This document shows positions 2,325-46,118 of a DNA stretch of 64,000 nt, piece by piece. The position numbers and the translations under genes were made by a program. Every line of letters begins with the position of its first letter. Within the stretch, counting starts at the first letter, position 1. Origin of the DNA: Rhodospirillaceae bacterium. Its GTDB lineage: Bacteria > Pseudomonadota > Gammaproteobacteria > Steroidobacterales > Rariloculaceae. Below the pieces are notes generated by a model. It did not search any database and was not told where the DNA came from. It was given only the letters and a program-made list of their open reading frames with translations. The DNA lies in NCBI GenBank assembly GCA_002718345.1, contig PBDA01000016.1, positions 4,072 through 68,071 on the forward strand, given 5' to 3'.

Positions 2325-2332
2325 TATGATTC

Positions 2333-3966: not shown

Positions 3967-4293
3967 TTAGTATTGTGCTTTATACAAGTTAACAATTGTG
4001 ACCCCGATCACAATTAGAAATAATCCGGTAATGGTTTGCCAATTCAGTGCTTGTTTATAAAAAATATAACTCAATATTGCTACTGAAAATACTCCTATAC
4101 CTGCCCAGGAAGCATACACAATAGACAGGGGTAGTTTTTGAGAAACAAGAGCAAGAAAATAAAAAGATAACCCATATGAGGCAAACAAAATAGAAGTCGG
4201 AAGTGGCTTTGTGAAATTTTGTGATGTAGGAAGTAACATTGTTCCCAACACCTCAAATGCAATTGCTGCGAAGAGTATTACATAGATATACAT
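3967..4293 (-). CDS. SMR/DMT family small multidrug transporter
   Basis: Four TM helices; conserved Glu in AIAFEV; LPLSIVYASWAGIG. Confidence 0.85.
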   Translation of the reverse strand: MYIYVILFAAIAFEVLGTMLLPTSQNFTKPLPTSILFASYGLSFYFLALVSQKLPLSIVYASWAGIGVFSVAILSYIFYKQALNWQTITGLFLIVIGVTIVNLYKAQY

Positions 4294-4478
4294 TGGGTCT
4301 TGAAATAGTTAGATAGTTTTGTCATCTGCTCTTCCAGGGGGCGCTTTTAGCTATATCCCAATTTTATTGCTGTCACCTCTAAAGTTAATCAAGTAAAAAG
4401 AATAGTGTGTATTAGCCTGATAGCCAAATTCTTTAATTCAACCTTTACTAAATAGCACTCTAATGTTTTTATACACAT

Positions 4479-5372
4479 ATGAATACGACTACAGAAAAGA
4501 TACTTGTACTTAATGCTACGGGCAAGGCTGGAGGCAATGTTTGCCGTGCATTGATTGAATCAGGGTTTGATGTATATGGCACAACCAGGGCAAATAAAAA
4601 ATCTCTGGTTGATAAGGGCATCAAACCGGTGTTGTGTAATTACACAGTAAGGTCCGATATTGAAAAAGCCCTTCAGCAGACTGGTGCTAAGAAAGTCTTT
4701 GCGATGACCGATTATTTTGGTGCGGCTAAATCAAATGCTGATGAAGAGATTCGCCAGGGACAAAATGCTATTAATGCTGCCAAGGCTGCCGGTGTGGATC
4801 ATTATATATTTATGAGTGTTGCAGATGCTGAATTTTTTAACGAGCATGTTAAACACTTAAAAGCAAAACCTATTTTAGAGCAATACCTGCATGATTCTGG
4901 TATTCCATATTCAATTCTTAGGCCCTGCGCATTTTTCGAGAATTTTGATGATCCCTCAAATTGGAATCCATTAAAAAAAGGTGTGGTTAAGTTTTTAACA
5001 GACAAAAATTGCAAATACTGCGCAACCTATGACATTGGTCGTGCTGCGTCTATTTGCTTTAAAAATCCTAGTGATTGGCTTGGTAATACTCTTGACGTAA
5101 TTGGTTGGCAAGGAAACTTGTCACAGGTGGCTGAAGCCTTGTCTAAGGTCAGTGGAATTCCTGTAAAAGCTAAATTGGTAATGCCAAAATTTTTACGTAG
5201 CTTATTTCTTAAAGATTTGCATCACATGTTTTTGTATTACGAGGTAGAAAAAGGACCGAGAGGAACTCCAGAGGATTTTAAAAAAATCTTACCAGATGCC
5301 TTATCAGCAGAAGATTGGTTTCGCTTTCATGGACAATATTCAAATGGAGAAAAGATTATTGTTGAGAGGTAG
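4479..5372 (+). CDS. NmrA-like NAD(P)-binding protein
   Basis: VLNATGKAG Rossmann start; AAKAAGVDH; SILRPCAFFEN; DIGRAA. Confidence 0.8.
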   Translation: MNTTTEKILVLNATGKAGGNVCRALIESGFDVYGTTRANKKSLVDKGIKPVLCNYTVRSDIEKALQQTGAKKVFAMTDYFGAAKSNADEEIRQGQNAINAAKAAGVDHYIFMSVADAEFFNEHVKHLKAKPILEQYLHDSGIPYSILRPCAFFENFDDPSNWNPLKKGVVKFLTDKNCKYCATYDIGRAASICFKNPSDWLGNTLDVIGWQGNLSQVAEALSKVSGIPVKAKLVMPKFLRSLFLKDLHHMFLYYEVEKGPRGTPEDFKKILPDALSAEDWFRFHGQYSNGEKIIVER

Positions 5373-5397
5373 TACATATTAAGAGGGAAGAGGATTG

Positions 5398-5636
5398 TCA
5401 TTCATTCACCCACTCTCTACAACCGCTATTGCCGTTAACGTCAACAGTTGCTGTTTGACCAGCTAATCAAATTGTTCTCCCACCCTGTGTTGAGACGGCG
5501 CGTGAAAAAGCTGGTAATTCTCCACGTTCATCGATGACATACTCCTTTTCTACAGGATCAGCAATGGCTATAACGGGAATAAATATCGCAATAAGAAGAC
5601 AAGCTAATTTTTGTAGTTTTTCTTTAAGATTTTCAT
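5398..5636 (-). pseudogene. Decayed exported RidA-family gene fragment
   Basis: Manual translation gives a signal-like segment, then AFSRAVSTQGGRTI*LAGQTATVD (TGA at 5467-5469 where Trp is expected); start is out of frame; 3' part missing. Confidence 0.65.
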
Positions 5637-5771
5637 AAGTCACTCTTGGTTTGATAGTTATGAGTTTAATTTGTTAGTGATATCCTATAAATAGTATTGA
5701 ATTAAGGTGTTTTAGTTTGAAGTTTTTCGAATATTAGTTGTTAGTCTGAGTAGTTATAGAACCAAAAAAAG

Positions 5772-5996
5772 ATGGAGAGTCTGATTTTTACTAAATTAAT
5801 GAGAATGCTAGGGATTGTTTTTTTCTTTTCTGGCGTTTTTGTTGTTATTTTTTTTCTTGCGTTATGGGTTACAGGAAATTTAGCTTATGGTCTTCTTCTT
5901 GTAGCCATTTTATGCTGGATATTCGCTTTTTTTATATTTACGGTTCTACAAACTCAAATCAAAAAAGACTGTGTAGAAATTAAAGAGAAGATGTAG
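5772..5996 (+). CDS. Small two-TM membrane protein
   Basis: 74 aa ORF with two hydrophobic helices. Confidence 0.5.
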   Translation: MESLIFTKLMRMLGIVFFFSGVFVVIFFLALWVTGNLAYGLLLVAILCWIFAFFIFTVLQTQIKKDCVEIKEKM

Positions 5997-6774
5997 ATTT
6001 TGTTTGAAGTTCCTTTATTGCATTATCAAATTGAGCAAGACGTTCGGGGCCAACTGGATGAGTATCAAAAAAAGAAGATCTTGTTCTCGCGTCTTCATTA
6101 TTTTTTGCCATATGCAATATTACTTCTCTAGCTTGAGTTAAATTAAAGTTGGCAGCTGAGAGTATGTGTATTGCAATAAGGTCTGCTTCTGATTCTTGTG
6201 CTACAGAATAGGTTTGGTTAGCAATGTAGCCACCTGCATTTGCCCCCGTATCAACATCACCAGCAATAACAGCACCTAAAACGGCACCTACCAATCGGCC
6301 TACTAAAATATTAGTGCTGCTTTCATTAATATGATTGAGTATATGATGGCTCAGTTCATGTGCCAGGACCAAAGCGACTTCATCAATATACAAAGTTTGT
6401 TCAATTATTCCTTTATAAATAACTATCTTGTCCGATCCGGTAGCATAGGCGTTAAATTCGTTATTCTCTTCAACCGTTACTTGCCAGTTTCTGCATGATG
6501 CACTACTTCTTTCCGACAGGTCATTGCACATGGATTGTGCTTTTGGTTTTAATTGTTCCATCACGCGCTCAATAATAGCTCTTGCTTCAGGCATAGATAC
6601 GCTTTTTGTTGGTCTGAGGCTCGCTGAGTTTATTTCATTAATAGCACTTGAGATGTTCTCGTTTGTAGGTGCAGGCAACCGATAAGATGGGGCGGTACAG
6701 GCAATTAAGAGCACAAATAATAGATAACAAAAAGTGTGTCTAAATTTCATTTTTGTTTGAAATAGGAATCTCAT
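5980..6774 (-). CDS. M48 family zinc metallopeptidase lipoprotein
   Basis: FNAYA, AHELSH (HExxH), YSVAQESEAD, THP motifs; lipobox LIAC. Confidence 0.88.
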   Translation of the reverse strand: MRFLFQTKMKFRHTFCYLLFVLLIACTAPSYRLPAPTNENISSAINEINSASLRPTKSVSMPEARAIIERVMEQLKPKAQSMCNDLSERSSASCRNWQVTVEENNEFNAYATGSDKIVIYKGIIEQTLYIDEVALVLAHELSHHILNHINESSTNILVGRLVGAVLGAVIAGDVDTGANAGGYIANQTYSVAQESEADLIAIHILSAANFNLTQAREVILHMAKNNEDARTRSSFFDTHPVGPERLAQFDNAIKELQTKSTSSL

Positions 6775-6816
6775 ATTATTTGTCAGATACGATTTAGCTT
6801 GAATAGCTAGTTAAAT

Positions 6817-7143
6817 TTACTGGGTAAGCAGTTCTGCAAATACCCAGTATTCAACGGCACTGACAACTAACCTATCTGGTTGTTGTTTGCATAGTCCCAG
6901 TACTGATGAGTACATCTCTTCATTAGAGAGTTCGGCCGCAATATCCCCTCTACCATATTCCCCGCTAATTCTTGTTAAAAACCCATGTATCCAACTGATA
7001 TAACTAAATCTATCCAGTTGATCTCCTGACAGATCATCTTCAATCATTTCTCCACACTGCCGGGTTCCATACCCAAATGCTGTTTGGCCTGAAGCGCTAA
7101 TTGAAAATATCAGCAGTAAGAATATAACGAGTGTTTTTATCAT
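6817..7143 (-). CDS. Small secreted helical two-Cys protein (HdeA/Rap1a-like pattern)
   Basis: Signal peptide; G..C, WIHGFL, C...P pattern. Confidence 0.5.
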   Translation of the reverse strand: MIKTLVIFLLLIFSISASGQTAFGYGTRQCGEMIEDDLSGDQLDRFSYISWIHGFLTRISGEYGRGDIAAELSNEEMYSSVLGLCKQQPDRLVVSAVEYWVFAELLTQ

Positions 7144-7173
7144 TATTATGTTTTTTCAAGAATTAACTAGATC

Positions 7174-7713
7174 TTAAGGGTTTGTTATGTGAATTAATAT
7201 TCCATTTTTGTAATGGCGTCTTTGTTGCAGAGCTCCTGTAACGGTAAATATATTTTCAAGGCCATCACGCTTACCCTCTATAAAATTTACTCTACTTAAT
7301 AGTGTGCCATTTAGATGAAATATTTCACTTAAACCATGGGCTTCTCCGCCTTGATAATCTTGTGTTGACTGGACCTGACCTCCTTCATAAAACCATTTGT
7401 GCTTACCTTCCCTTACACCATCAATGTAATGTCCTTTCGCGTACAAATAACCATTTTTATTAAATTTTTTTGAGAGTCCCTGTTTTTTTCCATTGATATA
7501 ATTTTCTTCTGATTTTAGTTGACCATTTTCGTGAAAAGACAGGAGGATGCCTGAAAGAAGTTTGGTAGATAACTGATGGTAAACGAGGCCATTCCTAGTT
7601 ATCGTTTCAATTTCAGATATAGCGTCTTGGGAGTAAATAATGTTACTCGCAAGCATCAATGAGAGAGTATGAATTAATTTAAGCATCAGCTTTATTCGAT
7701 GTGCTCTTATCAC
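7174..7713 (-). CDS. MORN-variant repeat protein (YwqK-like)
   Basis: Repeated F/Y-x-x-NG-x-L...Y..G...G units. Confidence 0.8.
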   Translation of the reverse strand: MIRAHRIKLMLKLIHTLSLMLASNIIYSQDAISEIETITRNGLVYHQLSTKLLSGILLSFHENGQLKSEENYINGKKQGLSKKFNKNGYLYAKGHYIDGVREGKHKWFYEGGQVQSTQDYQGGEAHGLSEIFHLNGTLLSRVNFIEGKRDGLENIFTVTGALQQRRHYKNGILIHITNP

Positions 7714-8139
7714 TTCTAATTCTCGATTAGTACGAATAATAATTAACTATGCTCTAGTTTTCCCTATTAATCGCCGAATATGCAAAATTATTTATATTTC
7801 CAGCTAATATTCTCTATAAATAAAGCACCCCAATATTCACATAAACTCATATCTCGAGTAAGTTTTGTGTGTTATTTAGTTTTTGAGTAAGTCTGAATTA
7901 AACTAAATCTAAAGTTAACTTTTGTTGTTAAAACCATATAAGACAATAATTTATAAAAATATCTTTATGTTAATTATAAGTTTTTAGGAGATATCTTTTC
8001 AGGTTGTTTAATTTGGTTATTTTTAATTTGAAGTGATTACCCCATCTTTAATAAACAATTTTTCCTTTGGAATGGTATTCTCGAAGATACTAGACTGAAC
8101 TAGAAAGAGTAAAAGCGGAACCTTTCAGGAGATTCATCA

Positions 8140-8610
8140 ATGGAGAAGAGCTTATTTTTAACCGGCCTTAGACCGTTCAAGTGGGGCATGGTATTCATGG
8201 GTATCATGTTGGCTGTTGGTTGCGGAGGTGGTAGTAGCGGTGGGGGAACTACTGCTTCATCAGATACAACGCCTACTGCATTTACATTTACGGACCAGAC
8301 TGGGGTTGCAAAAAGCACAGAAGTAACCTCCGCGGCAATAACAGTAGCTGGTATAGATGCTGCTGCTGCTATTTCTATTACAGGTGGAACATATCAAATA
8401 GGTAGTGGTTCTTTTACCAGTTCTGCTGGCACTGTAACCAATGGTCAAACTGTCAAAGTTAAGCATACAAGTTCTAGTAGTGGCGGCACAGCTGTTAATA
8501 CTGTGCTTACTATTGGCGGTGTTTCCGACACTTTTACTTCAACAACTGTCGCTGATCCTGTATCTGGTATAGCACTTCCAAGTGAAATAGATATTGTTGA
8601 AACAAGCTAA
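8140..8610 (+). CDS. Ser/Thr/Gly-rich surface lipoprotein with one beta-sandwich-like domain
   Basis: Lipobox AVGC followed by GGGSS; DTTPTAFTFTDQTGV...LTIGGVSDTFTSTT domain. Confidence 0.75.
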   Translation: MEKSLFLTGLRPFKWGMVFMGIMLAVGCGGGSSGGGTTASSDTTPTAFTFTDQTGVAKSTEVTSAAITVAGIDAAAAISITGGTYQIGSGSFTSSAGTVTNGQTVKVKHTSSSSGGTAVNTVLTIGGVSDTFTSTTVADPVSGIALPSEIDIVETS

Positions 8611-8622
8611 GGATTAAGTGAG

Positions 8623-11385
8623 ATGAAAATGAAAATATTTATAGGATTGATAGCTTTATTTTCGCTATCGACTGGAGTGGTTTCAGCACAGACAGCCTTT
8701 GAAACTGACGAGACAGATTTCTATGTTGATAACCAAACAAATGAATCTCTGGCTTTTGTAAACATGCTGATTTGTTACATGAAAGCAATGGCTCCTGACA
8801 AAATGGTCAATTTAGGGGCTTATATTGCTACTGTTTATATGGATGAATGCGAAAAAGAGGATACCTCTTCCTCGGATCAGGCTTCGGCTACGCCAACCTC
8901 AGCCCAATCTGCCAGTAATGCGGGCTCTGAAGCGACGTCAGGCGGTCAAGGCAATCAAGGCAAGGATGTTGATACCAACACCGTAAATGTGACAAGAGCA
9001 GATAATAGCTCTCCGATGATTGCCAAAGTTTGGGTTAACATGGATGAAGAGGAAGCGCAGCAAGAAGGAGACTCGCCTGAACCTGCGATGAATATTTTCG
9101 TAAAAGCTGAACAATCAGAGGGACCATCTGATTCGAAAAGGTTTGGTGTCTTTAAGATGGTGGGCACCTATTTGATTGGCAAGGATTTTACGCCTGGACC
9201 TGGTATGGATGCTATACCTGCTGGTACCAAGATGGGTGGTATGTACCTGGAGGCCGATGGCAATACGGTAAAGTTTCGTGAGGAGACCATGATGGGTCCA
9301 CCCGAGGCCCTCACAGCTACCTTTACAACTGACGGGGTTAGTGGCGTCTATAACCAGGAAACAGAGGTTCCTTATGGTGGTGACTACGCTCAATTACAAT
9401 TAGTCAGTAAATTTGCTATTAGCAATTCGGCAAAAGTTTACTGTTCAACGCTCCTTACCGCTAAACGAGTTGATTACGAAAATCCCGATTCCGATGGTCT
9501 GCCAGCGCTTATTGATTACACGCCGACAGGTAGTGATGGTCTGACAACTGATGAGGTTTGTTATTCAACAGCAATAGCGGATGCCAAGAGAAATGTCTGG
9601 CGATATGGTGTTTATAAACAGGATGGATCCAGATTCGAAGTAGGTCAGGGCGGTTTTCCGATGAAGGCTTCAGTGACAGTGGATGGTGCTCAGCAGACTA
9701 TTCATGCATGGGCTGACTACTGGGGTGTGCATTTCGATGAGCGATACTCAAACGAAGTTAAGTTTATTGGTGATAGTAGTCCTACGACATTTACTAAGGA
9801 ACAGTTTGCCGGAGAAACTGGGACTCCCCCGACCTATCAAATCAAGCGTGCCAATGCGAGGATTGAGAAGGTTGAGAAAAGTTATGTTGCGTTAGAGTCT
9901 TTACATAAGGCCAACGTTGTGATGTGGGTTGATAAGTGGGACACGAATTGGAATTCAAAATACGAAACATTAGGGTTTACAGGTTCTAGTGCTGAATATG
10001 CCGGTTCGTACAATAAAGATAATCAAACTTGGAGCTTTGATAAGAAAATAACCTTTGATTCTGGTTACAACGAAACAACTTTGGGTACCCCAATTACTTT
10101 TACTAATGCGCAGTGGGTGTCCACTATGGCAAGGACTTATGGTGGTGGAAGTGATACCTGGACTGAAAACAGGAGACTTTGGCTTTGGTCGCGAGATGAG
10201 CAAAAAGGTTATGAGGTAGGTAAAAAATCTCTTGAAAATCCTACAGATGGTACGTCAACAAATGGAATACCTGTAGAAACAGTGACCACACTGACGCCAG
10301 CTAATTTTCCAAGCACATTGTATTGTGTAGACCGTTGCACAACGGCTGCAAAATTAACTGCTACCGTCAATGCAGCAAAGGCTGCCAGCTCTGAAGGTTC
10401 AACAGTTGTCAGTCCATATGACGCAGATAATTGGCAGATCATTCAAAGTGGTTCAGATGCAGGTAACTGGTTCCCAGGGATTCTCGCTACTAATGTCAAA
10501 ACCTATACTATTTCTGGGGTTCAGGTTCTTGATAGCACGAACACTGAAATTATGTTTCCTGCAGATGTTACTAAACCAGAAGAACAGCTGAAGAAGTCGG
10601 TCTTTCAATGGCCATGGGGATCAACTAACGAGCTTCAGTGGGGTGTTGGCACGGGCCGACTACTTGCCTCAACGACTGATCTTGACAAGCTAGAGTGTGA
10701 AAAAGATTCTGGTGGAGATTATAGGGATACTCATCCGACGTTTTCTGCTTCAGCAAAGCGCTATTGCCCGGATAAGCTCTATGAAGATGGCAGCACAATC
10801 ACTACTTGGTATAATCTTCGTTTCGGTGCTAACCGTTGGGATCGACAAAAGTATTTGACCGACCAAAGCACTAGCCAAGATGTTGTTTTTACTCCACCAA
10901 CTACCCTTTACTATACAGTGCCTGATGAGGCTAAGTATGGTGATGATCGTGGTAAAAAAATTCGCCTCGACTATCAGGGTTTTGGCGAACTTCATGGTAT
11001 TCCTGGTGAGGTTATTAATACCCTAACCGGTGAGAGCCTTGGTCAATACTATTCAGGTGAATGGAACGATAATTTACGTTATACGCATCGATTCATCATC
11101 GAGAAGGATGCCGCGGGTAATGACCCGACTGTAACAACAGGTGGAGCTAGCCCAACAACCTATAAAGTTAAGGCTTTAGAAGGAGAGGAGTGGCTGACTC
11201 TTAAAACATCTGCTAAAGGCACTCTTACGTATACAGGTACAGCTTCAGATATGCCTGCTTCAAGTGTACTTGAAGATGTACACCCAGGTGCTACTGGTGG
11301 TGGTATAGGAGCTGAGCCAACTACAGGATTGGTTAATGATGGTAAGGCAGCTGTTATTCATGGCACAAAGGTAATTGCTGATTAA
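8623..11385 (+). CDS. Large secreted protein of unknown function (920 aa)
   Basis: Signal peptide; long beta-rich Gly/Thr/Trp-rich ORF with paired Cys; 12 nt after the lipoprotein gene. Confidence 0.8.
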   Translation: MKMKIFIGLIALFSLSTGVVSAQTAFETDETDFYVDNQTNESLAFVNMLICYMKAMAPDKMVNLGAYIATVYMDECEKEDTSSSDQASATPTSAQSASNAGSEATSGGQGNQGKDVDTNTVNVTRADNSSPMIAKVWVNMDEEEAQQEGDSPEPAMNIFVKAEQSEGPSDSKRFGVFKMVGTYLIGKDFTPGPGMDAIPAGTKMGGMYLEADGNTVKFREETMMGPPEALTATFTTDGVSGVYNQETEVPYGGDYAQLQLVSKFAISNSAKVYCSTLLTAKRVDYENPDSDGLPALIDYTPTGSDGLTTDEVCYSTAIADAKRNVWRYGVYKQDGSRFEVGQGGFPMKASVTVDGAQQTIHAWADYWGVHFDERYSNEVKFIGDSSPTTFTKEQFAGETGTPPTYQIKRANARIEKVEKSYVALESLHKANVVMWVDKWDTNWNSKYETLGFTGSSAEYAGSYNKDNQTWSFDKKITFDSGYNETTLGTPITFTNAQWVSTMARTYGGGSDTWTENRRLWLWSRDEQKGYEVGKKSLENPTDGTSTNGIPVETVTTLTPANFPSTLYCVDRCTTAAKLTATVNAAKAASSEGSTVVSPYDADNWQIIQSGSDAGNWFPGILATNVKTYTISGVQVLDSTNTEIMFPADVTKPEEQLKKSVFQWPWGSTNELQWGVGTGRLLASTTDLDKLECEKDSGGDYRDTHPTFSASAKRYCPDKLYEDGSTITTWYNLRFGANRWDRQKYLTDQSTSQDVVFTPPTTLYYTVPDEAKYGDDRGKKIRLDYQGFGELHGIPGEVINTLTGESLGQYYSGEWNDNLRYTHRFIIEKDAAGNDPTVTTGGASPTTYKVKALEGEEWLTLKTSAKGTLTYTGTASDMPASSVLEDVHPGATGGGIGAEPTTGLVNDGKAAVIHGTKVIAD

Positions 11386-11432
11386 TAGTGATAAAAAGTT
11401 GATGAATTGACTTGTAATCAGTTCTTGGTAAA

Positions 11433-11462
11433 AAATTTGGCGCCTTTTTAGGCGCCAAATTT
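11433..11462. terminator. Probable bidirectional intrinsic terminator
   Basis: Perfect 13-bp stem AAATTTGGCGCCT/AGGCGCCAAATTT with TTTT loop between convergent genes. Confidence 0.8.
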
Positions 11463-11615
11463 GTATGGAGGTTCCAAGAAAGTAAATCAGAATATATATA
11501 ATTTTTTATGTTCTCAGATTCTGAAAAACTTTTTTGAACAAATGTATGTTTAATATAAATTCGACGGTATAGGATTAAGATTTAGTACTATGTCAAATTG
11601 GGTATGGTATTGAGT

Positions 11616-12413
11616 CTAGATTATTTCTAGTTTGACTAGCGCTTCACAGCCTAAAAATACTGATCCGTCACTATCAAATATCAGTCCATCGACATAACGT
11701 TCAACTGCACCAAGGACGTTAGCAGGGGCCGTTGACTCAAGTTGTTGAAGAATAAGTTCTCCATGATTATCGATATCAAATTTTACAGTTACATCATGCT
11801 TACCTATAGATGTTATTCGTTCAAGTTCTTTTTTTAGTTGTGTTAGTTTTTCTGCTCGATTTAACGCATCTATTGGGCAATGTTCAGAAATTATAGGTGA
11901 GACTTTTGATTGCATAAGATTATCGTCATTATTAATGTTTGCATCAGTATCTGATCTAATTGCATATGCCAGTTGTGATTCAAGGTTATGTATGTCGGCT
12001 CTAAGAATCTCTAGTGGTTTGATTATTGAGTCAAGCTTACTTTCTAAAGTATTCACTTTTGTTTCTGCGGAAACTACCTGAGCGTTTGTTATTGTAGTTG
12101 AGTCAGAAAGTTCGTCTATAACAGTCCTAAATGATTCTAGCTCTGAATTTACGCTACTTATATTCAGTTGTTGTTTATTCTCAATTTCGATGAGCCTGCC
12201 TATATAAGAGTTAATTAAATTATTAGAACCGAGAATTTGGTCTTCAACACTTTTCAGTGTACTTGATGTTTCTTGAGATGCTGTATTCAAATGCGAGAAA
12301 ACCCGCTCTTGTAGCTCATTTATTGTAGTAGCTGTATTTATTTGCAATAGGTAATGCGTAACCGTATTAGTGACCAATGTTAAGGTAATTATTATTGATA
12401 CTGCTTTAAACAT
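11616..12413 (-). CDS. Membrane-anchored coiled-coil protein, C-terminus weakly TonB-C-like
   Basis: N-terminal hydrophobic helix; long heptad region; VTVKFDIDNHG; terminal Cys pair. Confidence 0.55.
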   Translation of the reverse strand: MFKAVSIIITLTLVTNTVTHYLLQINTATTINELQERVFSHLNTASQETSSTLKSVEDQILGSNNLINSYIGRLIEIENKQQLNISSVNSELESFRTVIDELSDSTTITNAQVVSAETKVNTLESKLDSIIKPLEILRADIHNLESQLAYAIRSDTDANINNDDNLMQSKVSPIISEHCPIDALNRAEKLTQLKKELERITSIGKHDVTVKFDIDNHGELILQQLESTAPANVLGAVERYVDGLIFDSDGSVFLGCEALVKLEII

Positions 12414-12438
12414 TATATTTCTCCCTTATATTTAGCAG

Positions 12439-12981
12439 CTAAAAAAGTTCGTAATAAGCGCCTGGGTATTCAGAATGTACTCTGTCTAACAGATCAAATG
12501 CGTCAGAGTTTCCGGGGCTTATAGATAGAGATTTGCCTGCCAATTTTTTTGCTTGCAAATATTCGCCAATATCGGCAAATGCAGCCGCCCTTGAATTTAA
12601 AAGTGGTACATAAGTGCTTCTTGCATACGGTTCAGTCCACTGTAATGCTTTATCTGGTTCGCCCAACTTTCGATAGAGGCAGCTAACGCGTGCAGCGACA
12701 AATATCTTTGAATCTGCTGTTTCATAGGCTTTACGTGCTAAAACTAGCGCTCTTAATAAATCTTTTCGTTTTTCTGCTAGTTTTGATGCTTCTAAAATCT
12801 CAGAAACCTCAGTGAGGTCTTCTTCCCAGGCATGGAGTTCATTTTCAACTTGGGAATTCAGTCTATCCTGAATATCCTGAGGGGCTTTTTTATAACCTAA
12901 GAACCAAATACCGTCGCGTAATTCATACTGTTTATCTTTGTAATGTATCTTCATAAGGTCCTCATTTGTTAGTCTGTTCAA
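12439..12981 (-). CDS. TPR-like protein
   Basis: Ala-rich helical repeats (LYRKLGEPDKAL, AAAFADIGEYLQA, LSISPGN). Confidence 0.65.
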   Translation of the reverse strand: MNRLTNEDLMKIHYKDKQYELRDGIWFLGYKKAPQDIQDRLNSQVENELHAWEEDLTEVSEILEASKLAEKRKDLLRALVLARKAYETADSKIFVAARVSCLYRKLGEPDKALQWTEPYARSTYVPLLNSRAAAFADIGEYLQAKKLAGKSLSISPGNSDAFDLLDRVHSEYPGAYYELF

Positions 12982-41843: not shown

Positions 41844-42527
41844 ATGTCCTACTTAAATCAGCCGGTAACGCCAGCGGTTAAAATTGCAGGTAGACAGGAA
41901 AAGTTTGCGGTTCGTCGTGTCTATTGTGTTGGATGGAACTACGAAGAACATATACGTGAGATGGGGCAGGAACCTGAGAGAGAGCCCCCAGTTTTCTTTA
42001 TGAAACCTCCTGATGCTCTGGTGCCAAACGGTGGTTTAATTCCGTATCCAACGGCTACACAGAATTTACACTATGAAGTTGAGTTGGTTGTCGCGATTGG
42101 TAGGTCAGCAAAAGATATTGCTACGTCGGCAGCTAAGGAGATCATCTATGGGTATGCTGTGGGACTTGATATGACAAGGCGAGACTTGCAAGCCCATGCT
42201 AAAAAGAATGGGCAACCCTGGGCCTTAGCTAAAGGATTTGATCATTCTGCTCCAATTAGCGCTATTCATCCTGCCCGCGATATTGGGCATCCATTAAGTG
42301 GCAGTATTTGGCTTGAGGTGAATGGTAAGAGACGCCAGGACGGTGACTTATCCAGAATGATCTGGTCCGTGCCAGAAATCATTCAACACCTGTCGGGATA
42401 CTTTGAACTTTTTCCGGGAGATTTGATCTTTACAGGGACACCTGCAGGTGTAGGTGCTGTTGTCCAAGGGGATCAGTTACGGGGTGGAATAGAGATGATT
42501 GATACGCTTGAAATTACCCTAGGCTAG
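41844..42527 (+). CDS. Fumarylacetoacetate hydrolase family (acylpyruvase-like)
   Basis: RRVYCVG.NY..H; FFMKP; HYEVEL; DMTRRDLQ; TGTPAGVG. Confidence 0.9.
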   Translation: MSYLNQPVTPAVKIAGRQEKFAVRRVYCVGWNYEEHIREMGQEPEREPPVFFMKPPDALVPNGGLIPYPTATQNLHYEVELVVAIGRSAKDIATSAAKEIIYGYAVGLDMTRRDLQAHAKKNGQPWALAKGFDHSAPISAIHPARDIGHPLSGSIWLEVNGKRRQDGDLSRMIWSVPEIIQHLSGYFELFPGDLIFTGTPAGVGAVVQGDQLRGGIEMIDTLEITLG

Positions 42528-43590
42528 GATCCATTTGAGCGCCATGCCCTATGCCTGGCGCGCAGTCATATCGGCCCATTGGAAGTGATGTTCTTACTAG
42601 AATACGTGACCCATAAAGATTCTCCGTGTAGTAATCTGGATCTTCAGCCTCCCAGGTGACCTCAAGGTCACCGTTATCTTTATTGATGCGCAGACGTTCG
42701 GTTAGTTTAAAGTTTGTTGTACGCACAAAGTCAGATCGTACAACACCCTCTGAAAACATGGCTGTCTCAATAATTATTTCGTCTTCTTCATAACGACCAA
42801 TTGAATGGCCCATTTCACTAGGTGCCACGTTGGCGGGATGATTATCCAGATTCATGTGTATTACACGTTCTGTATCCATAAACTCATGATGAATAATAAT
42901 ACGATCGCCTTCCTCTCTTATTTCGGTTGGAAGTCCGGGTTGAGACCAGGCACGGATAGGACTTATTGGACTGCATCTGTAGACTGGATTTGATGTTAGA
43001 GGGTTATTTGATGCGGATGCTCTTGCGCCTAACTCTGTTAAATACTGAAATGAGTCCGGGTCGATTCCAGCTCCAGGAAATGATTTTCTATACCAAACGC
43101 CAAAAATTGTTTGAGAAGCTCCTTGATCCAGTAGGGGAGAGTGCATACTTTGACCACTGCCAGTCCTTAGACTTAATACGCTCCCATCAGCCAGGTATCC
43201 TGTGCCAAACTCACATCCGAGCGGGTCTCGGCGTGCCTGAAAGCCTTCTATTCGGATGCGGTCTCCTACCTGTAAAGAACTTTCATTAATGCCTTTGATG
43301 CGCAACTGGGAACTTGCTTGCATTTCACACCACCGGGTTTCTTGCTCTCCATCAGCATTTGTAGTTTCAACATATACAAATGAATGAGGGTTTATGTACC
43401 GGAATTCCTTAATTGTTCCCTCAATAAATACTGAGTTAGACACATCATAATGAGCATTAAAGCCGTGATGAGAAAAGGCTAACCCCAGTTGGAAATAGCC
43501 TAGTATAAAAACAATGAATATGAGGGGTTGGTTCATAGTAATGGACTGAGTTTGAAGTATGGGTTTGTTGATTTGGATCATATTAGTCAC
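42514..43590 (-). CDS. Fusion of DUF6152-like domain and partner domain
   Basis: AFS|HH..INPH N-domain; NP..RC.P..PIR and MGHSIGRYE C-domain. Confidence 0.75.
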   Translation of the reverse strand: MTNMIQINKPILQTQSITMNQPLIFIVFILGYFQLGLAFSHHGFNAHYDVSNSVFIEGTIKEFRYINPHSFVYVETTNADGEQETRWCEMQASSQLRIKGINESSLQVGDRIRIEGFQARRDPLGCEFGTGYLADGSVLSLRTGSGQSMHSPLLDQGASQTIFGVWYRKSFPGAGIDPDSFQYLTELGARASASNNPLTSNPVYRCSPISPIRAWSQPGLPTEIREEGDRIIIHHEFMDTERVIHMNLDNHPANVAPSEMGHSIGRYEEDEIIIETAMFSEGVVRSDFVRTTNFKLTERLRINKDNGDLEVTWEAEDPDYYTENLYGSRILVRTSLPMGRYDCAPGIGHGAQMDPSLG

Positions 43591-43639
43591 TACTTAACCT
43601 TTTATGTAAGGATTAACACCAATCAATTAAATGGTCACT

Positions 43640-43816
43640 TTAGTCAGAAGATTCCTTATTTGGAGAAAGAGGTATCAAAATTTGATTTGAGTAAACTCTC
43701 TTGGAAACGATTAAACAATGACCTTCACTAACGGGATATCTATCCAAAATTACAAACCCAACAGAATTCTCAAAAATGTGTTCCCTGTCATCAAAAAATG
43801 GACTGTCATTCGTCAT
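43640..43816 (-). pseudogene. Truncated HIT family protein
   Basis: DRYPVSEGHCLIVSKR N-terminal HIT motif; stops before the HxHxH triad; start overlaps the HNH gene end. Confidence 0.7.
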
Positions 43817-44764
43817 TGTTTTCAGATAACTCCTCAAACTTCTTTCTGTGTTTTTTGAGATATTTTTTCATACCTTTTGAGATCTCAATTTTTATGTGAT
43901 CATTTAATCCAAGTCTTTCTAAATTATCTTTATTTACATTTTTAGAAACTAAAATTTCTCCGGTATCCCTAAAAGATATAATGTGTCTGTCAAATAATGA
44001 ATCAAATAAAGGTGACAACAAGATACCATTTTCAACATCTAATCGTTCCTCGTCATTAGATTCTGACCAGGGAACAATATGAGATGAAATCAAAATAGAT
44101 TTAATGTTAATACCTGTTACAGGACATTTCCCTCCCCATTTCTCAATAATTTGTTGTCTGTAATATCCTTGACCAACTCTAGAGGTTACTAATCCTTTTC
44201 TTTCTGTAGTGTTTGGTTTTTTATAATTCTTTTTTCTTTTTTTAGAAATAACACCTTGGTTTGATATTTTTGATCTTGTGGTCTTTCCAATAGAAGAAGG
44301 TTTCCATAAATAAATGTCCATGAGGTCATCGTTTTCGGTGTAATCATCATAATCAACGTTCTGATATATCATATGAACAGGTCTAGAGGTCCCTATCTCA
44401 TATGACAAGTAGGTCAACCTTCCACAATATACAAAAGGTTGAGTAACGTTTTTTATTTTGGGTGAAATTCTAACGAAAAGATGTGGAATCAAATTACCGT
44501 TTACAATTTCTTTTATTTTTGGACTTTCAATATGTTGGGTTGTTTGGGAATCCCAATGAAAAAATCACCTTCAAAAAAGTCATCAAAATGAAACCGTGAC
44601 TCCTTACCTTTCTTTTCTAAATCAACAAAAAATAAAGAGGAATTAGAGTTTTTTAAATTATAAATTCCCTCTCTGACCAAAGAAATATTTGGTTGATCTA
44701 ATAAGGTTGATAGATCTTTTTTGGAATATTTATCTCCGACTTTTAATTCTTGATAGGGATCCAT
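43806..44764 (-). pseudogene. DUF3427-like + HNH endonuclease (restriction/defence type), split by a 1-nt frameshift
   Basis: RVGQG.YR, CPVTG, SHIVPW, RLDVENGILL, DSLFD; adding one T to the T6 run (44559-44564) restores FFHWDSQ and joins both ORFs. Confidence 0.8.
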
Positions 44765-44837
44765 TATTTTAATACGGGGACAAAGTAATCTTATTCAACT
44801 GTAGTGGGTTTCGTTAGATAAAGCTTAAAGGTCTGTC

Positions 44838-46118
44838 TTACTCTTTAGATAGGTAAGCAGTGGTTCCCTCTGGTGATTCATACCAGCCCGGGTCACTGTA
44901 ATCGTTATGAGATTGTTCAGCACGAACTTTAAAAACTGTAAACATGCCGCCCATTCCTATTGGCCCATAAGGCCCTTCACCTGACATCATGGGAAGGGTA
45001 TTTTCAGGGAGCTCCATGTTCATGGAAGCCATTTCAGCCATGCCCTTGTCTCCCATAACCATATACCCTGGTATAAGACCCCTGAGTTTTTTTGCAGCCT
45101 CTTCAAAGTTAACGCCAATAGAGGTTAAAACATCATGGCTCATTGCGTTCATTGTGTGATGTGTTTTATGACAGTGAAAGGCCCAGTCTCCCTCTGAATC
45201 AGCAATTAGTTCAATTACACGTACTTGTCCCACACCGATATCAATTGTGGCTTCTGGCCATCGTGCAGTTTCCGGAACCCATCCCCCATCAGTGCCCGTG
45301 ACTTCAAAAGAGTGACCATGTAGATGTATAGGGTGATTCGTCATTGTTAAATTGCCAATGCGTATTCGTACCCGGTCTCCTTGTCGTACGTTTAGCGAAG
45401 AAATGCCAGGAAATACACGGCTATTCCATGTCCATAAATTAAAATCTGTATGAGTATTTACACGCGGTGTATAGCTACCCGGCTCTATGTTGTATGCACT
45501 CATTAGGAAGGCAAAGTCTCTATCAACAGATAGAGTGTTGGGGTCTTTGGGATGGACTATGATTAGCCCCATCATGCCCATAGCCATTTGGACCATCTCA
45601 TCCGCATGAGGATGGTACATAAAGGTCCCGGCATGATTCATATCGAATTCATATATCCATGTTTCTCCAGGACGGATGGCAGGCTGCGTAAGACCTGCTA
45701 CCCCATCCATGCCATTCGGTACACGAACTCCATGCCAGTGAATTGTTGTGTACTCAGGTAGTTTGTTGGTAACAAAGATACGTACACGGTCGCCTTCTAC
45801 ACATTCAATTGTTGGCCCTGGTGATTGTCCGTTATATCCCCAAAAATGTGCTGCCATGCCTGAAGCAATTTCGCGCTCAACTGGTTCTGCTACAAGATGA
45901 AATTCTTTGATCCCATCGTTCAAGCGCCATGGTAATGACCAGCCATTTAGTGTTACTACAGGTTTGAACGGGCTACCATTTGGAGGAGAGGAGGGTGGTG
46001 CTGTTACTGGGGACGTTGAGGATGTGGGTTCTGGTATCTGACCAAGAGCCCCACGGGGTACTGCACTAGCACTTACAAGCGCAGTAGCACCGGAGAGAAA
46101 ACTCCGACGAGATATCAT
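44838..46118 (-). CDS. Tat-exported two-domain multicopper oxidase
   Basis: SRRSFL; HWHG; YHPH; HPIHLHGH; HCHKTHH; Met-rich tail. Confidence 0.9.
   Translation of the reverse strand: MISRRSFLSGATALVSASAVPRGALGQIPEPTSSTSPVTAPPSSPPNGSPFKPVVTLNGWSLPWRLNDGIKEFHLVAEPVEREIASGMAAHFWGYNGQSPGPTIECVEGDRVRIFVTNKLPEYTTIHWHGVRVPNGMDGVAGLTQPAIRPGETWIYEFDMNHAGTFMYHPHADEMVQMAMGMMGLIIVHPKDPNTLSVDRDFAFLMSAYNIEPGSYTPRVNTHTDFNLWTWNSRVFPGISSLNVRQGDRVRIRIGNLTMTNHPIHLHGHSFEVTGTDGGWVPETARWPEATIDIGVGQVRVIELIADSEGDWAFHCHKTHHTMNAMSHDVLTSIGVNFEEAAKKLRGLIPGYMVMGDKGMAEMASMNMELPENTLPMMSGEGPYGPIGMGGMFTVFKVRAEQSHNDYSDPGWYESPEGTTAYLSKE

What the first reader, a model, noticed from the sequence alone, without database searches (positions are those of the whole stretch)
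43500..44822. A 1.3 kb GpC-free island encoding alanine-free defence-type proteins
Seen: no GC dinucleotide occurs between 43498-43499 and 44823-44824 (1323 nt; GpC is self-complementary, so both strands). I count about 16 CpG in the same stretch, and GpC is common in the flanking genes. At roughly 30% G+C, about 30 GpC would be expected. The reconstructed ~319-aa nuclease and the 58-aa HIT fragment contain no alanine. Positions that I recall as Ala in this HNH family (CAVTG, LIASH, DALFD) read CPVTG, LISSH, DSLFD. AGC, TGC, GGC, CGC, G|C codon junctions and non-coding GC are also missing, so the constraint is on the nucleic acid rather than on Ala alone. Inference: these genes come from a gene pool purged of GpC. 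Possible drivers are immunity to a GC-cutting RNase (precedent: the GCU-specific MqsR spares GCU-free ghoT mRNA), immunity to a GpC-targeting DNase or modifier of host or phage origin, or long-term mutational loss at modified GpC. This is the best candidate here for an undescribed system.
Basis: partly seen in the sequence, partly recalled or inferred. Interest (0 to 1): 0.92.

Follow-up and report, generated by a model that had tools for sequence, protein, structure and literature searches.

The report
GpC-free mobile restriction-nuclease cassette
A small mobile cassette encoding a nuclease that senses modified DNA is inserted here, and it belongs to a widespread pool of marine bacterial mobile DNA that has removed every GC dinucleotide, and with it the amino acid alanine, probably to stay untouchable in a conflict fought over modified GC sites.

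Summary
Window 43499-44823 has no GpC (0 against 31.9 expected). No other run in the 2.29-Mb assembly exceeds 303 nt. The run matches a discrete 1,265-nt insertion (43544-44808), because a relative has the empty site.

The insert is a decayed copy of a two-gene cassette. It encodes a DUF3427 (SRA-like 5mC reader) + HNH nuclease, predicted to be a Type IV modification-dependent restriction enzyme, and a HIT hydrolase. The copy has a 1-nt frameshift and a 262-nt deletion.

About 40% of homologous genes also have 0-1 GpC and no Ala, and GpC-free runs reach at least 8.8 kb. The state is held by selection:
- 126 G|C co-occurrences are expected among diverged GpC-free genes and 0 are observed.
- Ala is replaced by Ser(TCN) or Pro(CCN), not by Val or Thr.

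A second nuclease-like family (PDC-S18), a tyrosine integrase family and MORN cassettes share the trait. The cassettes accrete in arrays at the glmS 3' end.

Best reading (about 45%): DNA without GpC cannot be marked by GpC-specific cytosine modification, which is known from phage C5-MT/TET systems, so it is immune to nucleases that read that mark. An RNA-level cause is not excluded. I found no prior description.

The parts
43499..44823 (.). GpC-free run (last GpC at 43498-43499, next at 44823-44824)
43544..44808 (-). The inserted cassette (1,265 nt, 31% G+C). It sits in the spacer of about 20 nt between the start codon of the DUF6152 gene and the stop codon of the multicopper oxidase gene. 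Relative G007 has the two flanks about 3 nt apart (empty site).
43806..44764 (-). DUF3427 (SRA-like reader) + HNH_2 nuclease gene, about 319 aa and 0 Ala, broken by a 1-nt deletion. Predicted Type IV modification-dependent restriction endonuclease, here a pseudogene (or an assembly slip).
44558..44563 (-). T6 homopolymer where the intact copies L055, L054 and L081 have T7. This frameshift falls between reader-pocket residues D62 and W71.
43640..43816 (-). HIT-family hydrolase, N-terminal 58 aa only. The start overlaps the end of the nuclease gene, and the region carrying the histidine triad is deleted.
43685..43686 (-). Junction of a 262-nt deletion relative to L055, bounded by a 5-nt microhomology, that removed the C-terminal half of HIT
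43544..43684 (-). 3' tail of the cassette, 99.3% identical to L055 4066-4211. It ends at the crossover with the host pseudo-attachment site.
44791..44808 (-). 5' terminal relic of a glmS 3' end (reads ...TTVE-stop). This is the repeated boundary motif of the cassette arrays.
42514..43536 (-). Host flank: DUF6152 gene (likely ATG at 43536), normal GpC
44838..46118 (-). Host flank: multicopper oxidase gene, normal GpC

Best explanation
SHOWN. The island is a 1,265-nt mobile cassette inserted between two host genes. It encodes a nuclease with an N-terminal DUF3427 domain and a C-terminal HNH_2 domain, followed by a HIT nucleotide hydrolase. DUF3427 is homologous to the SRA-fold 5mC/5hmC-flipping specificity domain of SauUSI. 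The copy in this window is decaying: it has a frameshift and a 262-nt deletion.

The cassette belongs to a large pool of cassettes and integrative islands of mostly marine bacteria. This pool spans many phyla. Cassettes accrete in tandem at the 3' end of glmS, and integrase-bearing islands sit at tRNA-Phe. Purifying selection keeps their DNA entirely free of 5'-GC-3', and as a by-product their proteins contain no alanine.

INFERRED (most likely mechanism). GpC is a target of DNA-level conflict. One clade of phage C5-methyltransferases, coupled to TET-like oxidases and glycosyltransferases, modifies cytosine post-replicatively and specifically at GpC. The cassette's nuclease, and a sister alanine-free nuclease with a McrB-N-type domain, read modified cytosine, probably in the G-mC context, and cut such DNA.

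DNA with no GpC can never acquire that mark, whichever methyltransferase is active in the donor, the recipient or an infecting phage. The cassette is therefore unconditionally immune to its own nuclease and to related resident nucleases. That would apply while the cassette moves between cells, while it establishes itself, and when the rest of the cell's DNA has become modified. The HIT or NUDIX partner is inferred to hydrolyse modified (deoxy)nucleotides or a related nucleotide. Once a copy becomes a fixed resident, the constraint relaxes and GpC, then Ala, return.
For: Discrete insertion equal to the GpC-free run.

Decay relative to a 98.6% identical intact copy.

Family-wide trait:
- 48 of 120 listed homologues have 0 Ala (45 of 117 without the three rows that are the window's own product).
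- 10 of 23 genome loci with matches of 880 nt or more have 0-1 GpC in the gene.
- 35 of 80 metagenome loci have 0-1 GpC in the gene.
- GpC-free runs reach at least 8,826 nt (L014), 6,300 nt (L104) and 4,290 nt (L055).

Specific to GpC: in 87,025 nt of pooled GpC-free zones, the other 4-mer palindromes have obs/exp 0.54-1.03 and GAC/GTC are at expectation.

Active selection:
- In 24 non-redundant GpC-free genes (median 69% nt identity), 187 adjacent column pairs carry G then C in different sequences. 126.4 co-occurrences are expected and 0 are observed. Other dinucleotides give 0.84-1.09 and the GpC-normal genes give 0.98.
- Ala sites are replaced by Ser(TCN) or Pro(CCN), not by Val or Thr.
- The free state spans deep branches, with at least 5 to 10 nested relaxations.
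- In relaxed lineages GpC returns first at codon junctions, and Ala returns first at the family's preferred Ala columns.

Unit is the cassette: 18 of 43 inter-relic segments have 0 GpC, next to neighbours with normal GpC in the same array.

Reader identity:
- Pfam DUF3427 4.6e-16 and HNH_2 4.1e-12 on the intact homologue.
- The HNH half matches 6yex at E 1e-33.
- The N-terminal profile hits the SauUSI chain 7clg at residues 801-922, E 1.2e-3. The pocket residues named in PMC7913695 (Y831, F841, I842, W868, D858) align to Y35, F46, V47, W71 and D62, of which F46, D62 and W71 are invariant.
- DUF3427 proteins bind 5mC/5hmC and restrict T4gt (PMC6765204, passages read).
- A second alanine-free nuclease joins a McrB-N-like domain to the same HNH.

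Real source of modified GpC: phage C5-MT/TET clusters are specific for GpC (PMC8256090, passages read). It is unknown whether they also modify host DNA (bioRxiv 10.1101/2023.12.21.572611, passages read).

Partner: HIT or NUDIX lies downstream in 22 of 41 free, 7 of 20 intermediate and 7 of 27 normal genes. The NUDIX matches PADLOC PDC-S07, and its best NCBIfam hit (below cut-off) is a pyrimidine dNTP diphosphatase.

C5-methyltransferase (PF00145): found in 0 of 5 genomes with an intact GpC-free nuclease, in 2 of 5 with GpC-normal homologues, and in the window's genome, which has the broken copy. This is only anecdotal.
Against: No result here shows the sequence context that the nuclease reads. 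'G-mC' is inferred from the avoidance itself and from SauUSI's S5mCNGS site.

The host chromosome is full of GpC. Self-immunity of the cassette alone therefore only pays under extra assumptions: transfer from phage-modified donors, entry into cells with resident nucleases of the same kind, or survival of the element when the cell is lost.

GpC-free cassettes exist that encode no recognisable nuclease (MORN in L055, c3 in L011).

One genome (G131, completeness not given) has a GpC-free PDC-S18-like cassette but no DUF3427-HNH detectable with the A1 profile.

Homologues with normal GpC exist and keep the same partner genes, so GpC-freeness is not required for the protein to be retained.

The viral-contig scan found only one weak partial relative, so no link to particular phages was found.

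GpC is self-complementary, so these data cannot separate a DNA-level constraint from an RNA-level one.

The methyltransferase counts (0/5 against 2/5) are far too small to test anything.

The structure could not be predicted because the tool was off.
Confidence: 0.45

Rival explanations
1. Protection from a nuclease that attacks UNmodified GpC. Phages that mark their own GpC sites (or other invaders) may degrade or nick host DNA at unmodified GpC. Cassettes without GpC would stay intact and transcribable when the chromosome is destroyed, so defence genes would still be made late in infection, or the element could escape the dying cell.
For: It fits the absolute zero tolerance and the match between GpC-free zones and cassette limits, including non-coding parts. 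Several unrelated defence-type families share the trait: PDC-S18-like 72 of 120 with 0 Ala, NUDIX/PDC-S07 and PD-(D/E)XK. So do genes without a nuclease and a genome without the DUF3427-HNH gene. The bioRxiv paper read raises a possible 'GpC-specific endonuclease activity' and reports restriction nucleases in the phage modification clusters. The analogy to chlorovirus and T4 host-DNA degradation comes from my recall.
Against: No GpC-specific nuclease is known or was found here. A fragment released by flanking cuts would be linear and short-lived. It is unclear why an integrase, a resolvase and MORN proteins would need to be expressed in a doomed cell. The link to 5mC-reader nucleases would then be indirect.
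Confidence: 0.2
2. RNA-level immunity. The transcripts of these cassettes lack GC so that they survive an endoribonuclease that cuts at GC (a toxin of the host or element, or a phage shut-off RNase).
For: GpC is its own complement, so genes on either strand would be covered. All codon phases and the untranslated parts inside cassettes are free of GC. Small unknown ORFs (c3, c12, c20) travel with the cassettes and match no family in Pfam, NCBIfam, PADLOC or PHROGs, so an unrecognised RNase is possible.
Against: No RNase or toxin-antitoxin family was detected in any annotated cassette. The minimal GpC-free cassettes hold only the nuclease and HIT. The GpC-free zone runs from the first to the last base of the insert, including the recombination relics at both ends. 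The signature cargo reads modified DNA, not RNA.
Confidence: 0.15
3. General evasion of restriction during promiscuous transfer. Removing GpC deletes, or prevents methylation of, many common recognition sites (GGCC, GCGC, AGCT, GCNGC and others), independently of the cassette's own nuclease.
For: The elements are spread over many phyla at 60-90% protein identity. All GC-containing palindromes are necessarily absent.
Against: Other frequent 4-mer palindromes (GATC, CATG, CCGG, CTAG, GTAC, TCGA) are only mildly reduced, with obs/exp 0.54-0.88. This does not explain paying the cost of losing alanine altogether. Neighbouring cassettes in the same arrays do without the trait.
Confidence: 0.1
4. Mutational decay: deamination of methylated or targeted cytosine at GpC (GC to GT/AC), without selection for the absence of GpC.
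For: The islands are A+T-rich (27-32% G+C) and CpG is also reduced (obs/exp 0.5).
Against: At ancestral Ala sites the replacements are Ser(TCN) and Pro(CCN), which are first-base transversions, and not Val or Thr. The count is exactly zero over as much as 8.8 kb while the ORFs stay intact. There are 0 of 126 expected G|C co-occurrences among genes that have diverged to 60-70% identity. The host DNA immediately adjacent is normal.
Confidence: 0.03

Closest known systems
SauUSI and the McaZI/BwiMMI/EfaL9I group (DUF3427-containing Type IV modification-dependent restriction enzymes; PMC3141236 seen in a search listing only, PMC6765204 and PMC7913695 passages read)
   Same: The same reader domain (Pfam DUF3427, SRA fold), with the 5mC-pocket residues of SauUSI aligned and conserved. 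No cognate methyltransferase was seen in the cassettes annotated. Predicted restriction of DNA carrying 5mC or 5hmC.
   Different: The nuclease is HNH_2, not PLD + helicase (SauUSI) or PD-(D/E)XK (McaZI group). In the passages I read, the 2019 screen reports activity data only for DUF3427-PD-(D/E)XK fusions. There is a conserved HIT/NUDIX partner. The gene and its whole cassette lack GpC and Ala, which is not reported for those enzymes.
EVE-HNH / SRA-HNH enzymes (TspA15I-VcaM4I group, TagI, ScoA3IV). PDB 6yex is titled 'HNH endonuclease'; that it is VcaM4I is my recollection.
   Same: Architecture of an N-terminal modified-base reader plus a C-terminal HNH. The HNH halves are homologous (E 1e-33), including the ...LI(A/S)SHI.PW... 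and ...NG.LL.P..D.LFD... blocks.
   Different: A different reader family. In 6yex the block reads LIASH with Ala, while all 41 GpC-free genes have Ser there.
Restriction-site or cleavage-site avoidance as immunity (palindrome avoidance in phages and plasmids; ghoT mRNA lacking GCU under MqsR; ACA-less mRNAs under MazF), all from recall
   Same: Immunity through absence of the target sequence in one's own nucleic acid.
   Different: Here the avoided word is only 2 nt long, the avoidance is absolute over kilobases and across whole mobile elements, and it removes one amino acid from the encoded proteins. The agent is not identified.
Phage C5-methyltransferase / TET-like dioxygenase / glycosyltransferase clusters specific for GpC (PMC8256090; bioRxiv 10.1101/2023.12.21.572611; passages read)
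   Same: The only described prokaryotic-virus systems centred on the same dinucleotide. They create 5mC, 5hmC or glycosyl-5hmC at GpC, the kind of mark a DUF3427/SRA reader binds.
   Different: They are the proposed opponent, not a relative. No such genes were seen in the islands annotated here, and no link between particular phages and these hosts was established.
Integron cassette arrays and integrative elements that target the 3' end of a gene; Tn7 at attTn7 downstream of glmS (recall)
   Same: Small, mostly single- or two-gene cassettes stacked in tandem at one chromosomal site and delimited by a repeated short site. The site is at glmS.
   Different: The repeated site is a copy of the last roughly 18 nt of glmS (...xTVE-stop), not an attC. 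No IntI or Tns genes were seen in the loci annotated. The recombinase for the glmS arrays is unknown.

Membership tests
Type IV modification-dependent restriction endonuclease (reader + HNH class) | A modified-base reader domain | tested here: met
   Pfam DUF3427 at E 4.6e-16 (59 bits, cut-off 27.7) on the 98.6%-identical intact homologue L055. The window's own 83-aa piece scores only 22 bits, below the cut-off. PF11907 is precomputed for nearly all full-length homologues.
Type IV modification-dependent restriction endonuclease (reader + HNH class) | A conserved 5mC-binding pocket as in SauUSI's SRA-fold TRD | tested here: met
   The profile of the N-terminal domain hits 7clg_A residues 801-922 at E 1.2e-3. 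Y831, F841, I842, W868 and D858 (PMC7913695) align with Y35, F46, V47, W71 and D62, of which F46, D62 and W71 are invariant in A2. This rests on a sequence alignment only, with no structural model.
Type IV modification-dependent restriction endonuclease (reader + HNH class) | An HNH catalytic domain | tested here: met
   HNH_2 at E 1.8e-11 on the window ORF. The profile hits the solved entry 6yex at E 1e-33.
Type IV modification-dependent restriction endonuclease (reader + HNH class) | No cognate protective methyltransferase beside the gene | tested here: met
   No methyltransferase was found in the window insert or in the cassettes annotated. A ParB-N6/N4 methyltransferase occurs in one integrase island that lacks the nuclease.
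Type IV modification-dependent restriction endonuclease (reader + HNH class) | Cleavage that depends on modified cytosine, and its sequence context | not testable with these tools
   Needs enzyme assays.
Type IV modification-dependent restriction endonuclease (reader + HNH class) | An intact reading frame in this window | tested here: not met
   T6 instead of T7 at 44558-44563 splits the gene.
HIT-family nucleotide hydrolase | A complete HIT domain with the histidine triad | tested here: not met
   The window fragment covers profile positions 8-38 of 98 only, at E 0.036. A 262-nt deletion removed the rest. Intact cassettes have a full HIT domain at E 3.8e-19.
Integron gene cassette | An attC site and an IntI integrase | tested here: not met
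   The boundaries are relic copies of the glmS terminus, not attC-like imperfect palindromes. No IntI was seen in the annotated loci. I did not run a dedicated attC or IntI search.
Tn7-like element at attTn7 | Tns transposition genes and insertion downstream of glmS without duplicating the end of glmS | tested here: not met
   The glmS end is repeated at each cassette border. No transposase family appeared in the Pfam scans of island ORFs. Only a part of all ORFs was scanned.
Nuclease-resistant transcripts of toxin-antitoxin systems (MqsR/GhoT type) | A cognate sequence-specific endoribonuclease | tested here: inconclusive
   No RNase or toxin family was detected among cassette ORFs, but several small ORFs have no family at all.

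The most novel reading that the evidence does not exclude
Marine bacteria harbour a previously unrecognised class of 'unmarkable' mobile DNA. These are cassettes stacked at the glmS terminus and integrase islands at tRNA-Phe. They have eliminated the dinucleotide GpC completely, and therefore alanine from their proteomes, over evolutionary depths reaching about 30% protein identity. The reason would be that GpC is the battlefield of a widespread epigenetic war. Phages write 5mC, 5hmC or glycosyl marks at GpC. The cassettes carry nucleases that read those marks (DUF3427-HNH, McrB-N-HNH, perhaps PDC-S18). Being free of GpC is their form of self-immunity. This would replace a methyltransferase, the usual immunity partner of a restriction enzyme, with the absence of a sequence.
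Probability: 0.4. Interest if true: 0.95.

Novelty: new variant of a known kind. Interest (0 to 1): 0.9.

Why it matters
A ban on one dinucleotide that is absolute over kilobases would be an unusually clean natural example of selection on nucleic-acid sequence overriding protein composition. It is kept while genes diverge to 60% identity, it is shared by unrelated gene families on the same mobile elements, and it is strong enough to remove alanine from proteins of 300-940 residues.

It gives a simple sequence signature (GpC-free runs, alanine-free ORFs) for finding a whole mobilome and its defence cargo in ocean metagenomes.

It predicts the specificity (G-mC) of an uncharacterised but very common nuclease family. 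About 1,400 near relatives were found in one search, and 13,809 profile hits at 50% clustering.

It also suggests that GpC-specific phage DNA modification, whose purpose the literature I read calls unclear, is a major selective force. Alanine-free, GpC-free genes could also serve as tools, for example as templates that GpC methyltransferases cannot mark.

Tried and rejected
Chance or composition: rejected. 31.9 GpC are expected and the run is unique in the genome.

A second GpC-poor region at C51:700-1600: checked, and it is only A+T-rich (3-8 GpC per 250 nt).

General palindrome avoidance: rejected.

Deamination: disfavoured.

Phage origin of the cassette: the viral-contig scan gave 1 weak partial hit from 47 pattern matches.

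Paralogues in the genome: none, only the window's copy.

A promoter guessed at the cassette's 5' end: not supported by the consensus scan, which gave 1 promoter-like site on the other strand and 0 terminators. I dropped it.

Gene G+C against flank G+C as a sign of amelioration: the correlations were unhelpful (r = 0.69 free, 0.34 normal) and I did not use them.

Terminal repeat motif as a transposon end: replaced by the glmS-relic reading.

Unknown companions c3, c12, c20, c19 and others: no family in Pfam, PADLOC, NCBIfam or PHROGs.

Sequencing runs: 20 rows hold part of the stretch, from 12 studies. The 14 DNA holders hold 43-84% of the sampled words and are labelled marine or seawater metagenome, apart from one coded organism. 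None was laid, so I draw no conclusion on habitat, expression or the frameshift from them.

Literature: searches for DUF3427, GpC/phage/TET (38), 'GC dinucleotide'/avoidance (50, uninformative), GpC-free/alanine-free wording (51; 40 papers, 25 listed), GpC/mobile element/type IV (89; 10 papers, 9 listed) and glmS cassettes (95; 55 papers, 12 listed). None of the listed papers describes GpC-free or alanine-free mobile genes, or cassette arrays at the glmS terminus. Subscription journals are not covered. The supplementary tables of PMC6765204 (lists of DUF3427 fusions) and of PMC8256090 (origins of the phage contigs, motif figures) may bear on whether DUF3427-HNH proteins were listed, and on which hosts the GpC-modifying phages infect.


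Full report
**Observation.** The window has 3,250 GpC, but none between 43498 and 44823. That gap is 1,325 nt and the next longest is 290 nt. The stretch 43500-44822 is 31.1% G+C. From its base composition 31.9 GpC are expected and 0 are seen (Poisson P about 1.4e-14). CpG occurs 16 times. In the whole assembly (2.29 Mb, 64 contigs, a MAG with completeness 86%) GpC is over-represented (obs/exp 1.20). The next longest GpC-free run is 303 nt, and no other dinucleotide has a free run above 556 nt. A scan of 800-nt windows singles out only this locus. None of 1,520 ORFs of 200 aa or more in the genome lacks alanine, while all three coding pieces of the island do.

**What the stretch is.** A relative of the same genus (G007) has the two flanks about 3 nt apart. 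The island is therefore a discrete 1,265-nt insertion (43544-44808). It lies in the short spacer between the start of a DUF6152 gene and the stop of a multicopper oxidase gene. Every base of the insert lies in the GpC-free run. The run extends only 45 and 15 nt further, into host DNA that happens to lack GpC there.

On the minus strand the insert carries two genes:
- One gene reads as a protein of about 319 aa across a 1-nt slip.
- The second is the first 58 codons of a HIT-family gene.

A metagenome contig (L055) holds a copy that is 98.6% identical, with 18 mismatches in 1,265 aligned positions. Against it and two other intact copies, the window has T6 instead of T7 at 44558-44563. It also has a 262-nt deletion, bounded by a 5-nt microhomology, that removes the C-terminal half of HIT. 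The copy here is therefore decaying, unless the T6 tract is an assembly error.

**The trait belongs to a gene pool.** A protein search found 1,401 relatives. Of the 120 listed (63-100% identity, mostly 310-320 aa with DUF3427 + HNH_2), 48 have no Ala and 80 have three or fewer. Three of the 120 rows are the window's own product.

At the DNA level:
- 10 of 23 genome loci with matches of 880 nt or more have 0-1 GpC in the gene against 17-28 expected.
- 35 of 80 metagenome loci have 0-1 GpC in the gene (31 with zero). The remaining 45 have 5 or more, and range from partly depleted to normal.
- The GpC-free run usually extends beyond the gene: at least 8,826 nt in L014 (to the contig end), 6,300 nt in L104, 4,290 nt in L055, 3,958 nt in L105 and 3,780 nt in L097.

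The hosts named in the records span Methylophilaceae, marine Alphaproteobacteria, Flavobacteriaceae and other Bacteroidota, Rhodothermales, Dehalococcoidia, Verrucomicrobiota, Marinimicrobia and Prochlorococcus. There is also a fragment in an archaeal MAG.

In 87,025 nt of pooled GpC-free zones only GpC is missing. CpG has obs/exp 0.52, the other palindromic 4-mers 0.54-1.03, and GAC and GTC are at expectation.

**Selection, not mutation or history.** I took 24 non-redundant genes with zero GpC (pairwise nt identity 60-94%, median 69%). Among them, 187 adjacent alignment columns have G in the first and C in the second in different sequences. Independence predicts 126.4 co-occurrences, and none is observed. 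Eleven other dinucleotides give ratios of 0.84-1.09, and GpC in the GpC-normal genes gives 0.98.

Where GpC-normal homologues mostly have Ala, all 41 GpC-free genes have Ser encoded by TCN (three columns) or Pro encoded by CCN. These are first-base transversions to the most similar GpC-free codon, not the Val or Thr expected from cytosine deamination.

On a tree of 88 full-length genes, the free state (41 genes) covers deep and diverse branches. Normal (27) and intermediate (20) genes are nested in it, with at least 5 changes forced by well-supported branches and 10 by parsimony. The deepest branches are normal.

At 50% clustering, only the representative of this subfamily is Ala-free among 12 full-length DUF3427-HNH representatives. 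The trait is therefore derived.

In the intermediate genes GpC has come back mainly at codon junctions (94), then as NGC codons (42), then as Ala codons (26). The Ala gains are most frequent at the two columns where normal genes prefer Ala. This is the pattern expected when a constraint that was costly for the protein is lifted.

**Breadth.** Inside GpC-free zones the recurrent order is [small unknown c3] - nuclease - [HIT, NUDIX or small unknown c12]. The extras are MORN-repeat proteins (one of 941 aa with no Ala), PD-(D/E)XK nucleases, a serine recombinase, a tyrosine integrase and several unknowns. All 58 ORFs of 200 aa or more inside the zones lack Ala. In the flanking DNA, 12 of 438 such ORFs lack Ala, and all 12 are the nuclease itself or island cargo.

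Two further families show the same trait:
- The c14 gene matches PADLOC PDC-S18 at E 5e-92, and some sources name it a RecB/NucS-type endonuclease. 72 of its 120 listed homologues have no Ala.
- Among relatives of the 526-aa integrase of the L014 island, 45 of 101 have no Ala and 63 of 101 have two or fewer, down to about 30% identity.

In Flavobacteriaceae genomes these integrase islands sit next to tRNA-Phe, downstream of coaX. They are mosaics of GpC-free or nearly free modules and normal cargo. In G181 the integrase has 1 GpC against 27 expected, a ParB-N6/N4 methyltransferase has 5 against 39, and PadR plus one ORF have 0.

One genome (G131) has a c14 gene alone in a 1,344-nt GpC-free run. 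No DUF3427-HNH gene was found there with the family profile.

**How the small cassettes move.** The motif of about 18 nt at cassette borders always reads ...(S/F/T)(V/I/T)TVE-stop, which is the C-terminus of GlmS (L011...NLAKSVTVE-stop). In 26 of 117 loci glmS abuts the island, and the GpC-free run begins within its last 20 nt or so. Inside islands, relic copies of this terminus separate the cassettes: three in L055 and four each in L048, L051 and L052.

Of 43 inter-relic segments, 18 have 0 GpC (12-65 expected) and 5 have 1-2. About as many are normal, sometimes as direct neighbours in the same array. In L048 the counts are 0 against 33 expected, next to 20 against 24 and 60 against 58. The cassette is therefore the unit that carries the trait.

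The window's cassette keeps such a relic at its 5' end (44791-44808). At its 3' end it is joined to the host at a short sequence that resembles the relic. This looks like an off-target integration away from glmS. The recombinase responsible is unknown.

**What the nuclease is.**
- Pfam finds DUF3427 (E 4.6e-16) and HNH_2 (E 4.1e-12) in the intact homologue.
- The HNH half is homologous to the solved 'HNH endonuclease' 6yex at E 1e-33. My recollection is that 6yex is the EVE-HNH enzyme VcaM4I.
- A profile of the N-terminal domain alone has one meaningful PDB hit: residues 801-922 of 7clg, E 1.2e-3. That is SauUSI.

In the paper (PMC7913695, passages read), the TRD of SauUSI (residues 806-953) has an SRA fold. 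It is modelled to flip 5mC into a pocket made of Y831, F841, I842 and W868, with D858 bonding the base. These residues align with Y35, F46, V47, W71 and D62 of our family.

PMC6765204 (passages read) reports that DUF3427 is the specificity domain of SauUSI (site S5mCNGS). It also reports that DUF3427-PD-(D/E)XK proteins bind 5mC/5hmC DNA and restrict T4gt.

The gene is therefore best read as a Type IV modification-dependent restriction endonuclease of a not yet characterised architecture.

Among HNH-only relatives that lack Ala, one (P0406, 303 aa) carries a McrB-like N-terminal domain. From recall, that domain is the 5mC reader of McrBC.

The downstream partner is a nucleotide hydrolase, either HIT or NUDIX. 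It is present in 22 of 41 free, 7 of 20 intermediate and 7 of 27 normal loci. The NUDIX matches PADLOC PDC-S07 (E 5e-28). Its best NCBIfam hits, both below cut-off, are a pyrimidine (d)NTP diphosphatase and MutT. Its role, sanitising modified dNTPs or degrading a nucleotide signal, is inferred and not shown.

**Why GpC.** The literature offers one natural source of marks at exactly this dinucleotide. Phage clusters of a C5-methyltransferase, a TET-like dioxygenase and glycosyltransferases act post-replicatively at GpC. Most prefer GpC[C/T], and one subclade accepts any GpC (PMC8256090, passages read). A follow-up preprint states that the purpose of GpC-restricted modification is unclear. It also states that it is not known whether phage DNA, host DNA or both are modified.

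Putting this together, my preferred reading is that the cassette nucleases read modified cytosine in the G-mC context. On this reading, the cassettes have given up GpC so that no methyltransferase can ever make them a substrate. This would be self-immunity through absence of the site instead of through a protective methylase.

This reading explains four things:
- the absolute zero;
- the match with cassette limits;
- the association with two unrelated domains linked to 5mC reading;
- the relaxation in copies that look like settled residents.

It does not by itself explain three others:
- why a cassette gains from immunity when the chromosome around it is full of GpC;
- why cassettes without a nuclease share the trait;
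- why G131 has a GpC-free cassette without this nuclease.

A close variant, protection from a nuclease that attacks unmodified GpC, handles those points better. It lacks any known agent, however. An RNA-level cause (a GC-specific RNase) cannot be excluded from sequence alone, because GpC is its own complement.

The host of the window has one C5-methyltransferase gene, split over two contig ends, and a broken nuclease. Five genomes with intact GpC-free nucleases have none, and two of five genomes with GpC-normal homologues have one.

**Novelty.** The gene is a new member of a known class. The phenomenon is complete exclusion of one dinucleotide from whole mobile cassettes and islands, with loss of alanine from their proteins. 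It is held by selection across phyla and across unrelated gene families. I found no description of it in six literature searches. I file it as a new and extreme variant of immunity by target-site avoidance, with the agent still to be identified.

**Limits.**
- There is no structure model (tool off).
- There is no read-level check.
- Earlier scan notes were not available.
- Contexts were sampled through homologues of the nuclease, c14 and the integrase, so the true extent of the GpC-free pool is unknown.
- Ala-free counts stand in for GpC-free DNA wherever only proteins were available.

Noticed in passing
L011 7584-10806; L048 94-4150; L051 19-3364; L052 1666-5645; L055 983-4245; window 44791-44808: Tandem arrays of small gene cassettes directly downstream of glmS. 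Each cassette ends with a relic copy of the last roughly 18 nt of glmS (...xTVE-stop). 26 of 117 fetched loci have glmS abutting the island. The responsible recombinase was not identified, and I found no description in one literature search.
   Followed up: partly
L014 6203-15051; L159 (G181:C1:858001-873000) 1681-12900: Integrative islands next to tRNA-Phe, downstream of coaX, in Flavobacteriaceae. Their large tyrosine integrase family is largely alanine-free (45 of 101 relatives with 0 Ala, down to about 30% identity). The islands are mosaics of GpC-free modules and cargo with normal GpC.
   Followed up: partly
L067 1187-2149 (-); L129 1324-2668: A second nuclease-like family of about 320 aa (PADLOC PDC-S18, E 5e-92; labelled RecB/NucS-type by some sources) has 72 of 120 listed homologues without alanine. 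It can form a solitary GpC-free cassette in a genome where the DUF3427-HNH gene was not found.
   Followed up: partly
P0406 (protein only), also P0363, P0400, P0404: Alanine-free proteins with the same HNH_2 domain but other N-termini. One has a McrB-like N-terminal domain (PF12102, E 4.6e-8). The other three have N-terminal regions with no Pfam family.
   Followed up: partly
G000:C63:47385-47750 and G000:C51:13-444; C51:451-1029 (-): The host's only detected cytosine-5 DNA methyltransferase gene is split over two contig ends. It lies beside a 192-aa Cys/His-rich ORF with an HNH or endonuclease-VII-like motif (my reading of the sequence, no family search), possibly a restriction-modification pair. 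The longest CpG-free run of the genome (556 nt, C63:46995) lies at its 5' side.
   Followed up: partly
L104 3240-6065; L055 1369-2661: MORN-repeat proteins of 430-941 aa without a single alanine, forming GpC-free cassettes of their own. Their function is unknown, with a weak NCBIfam similarity to a Leptospira adhesin family (below cut-off).
   Followed up: no
window 5603-5807, 7825-8115, 11454-11639: Three of the next-longest GpC gaps of the window (204, 290 and 185 nt) cluster in an A+T-rich region (about 25% G+C) near the start of the window. They are compatible with low G+C alone (expected 2.4-4.5 GpC each). I did not examine them further.
   Followed up: no
L159 3468-4832: A ParB_N-fused N6/N4 DNA methyltransferase (454 aa) beside the alanine-free integrase is itself strongly GpC-depleted (5 against 39 expected). 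Its specificity is unknown.
   Followed up: no
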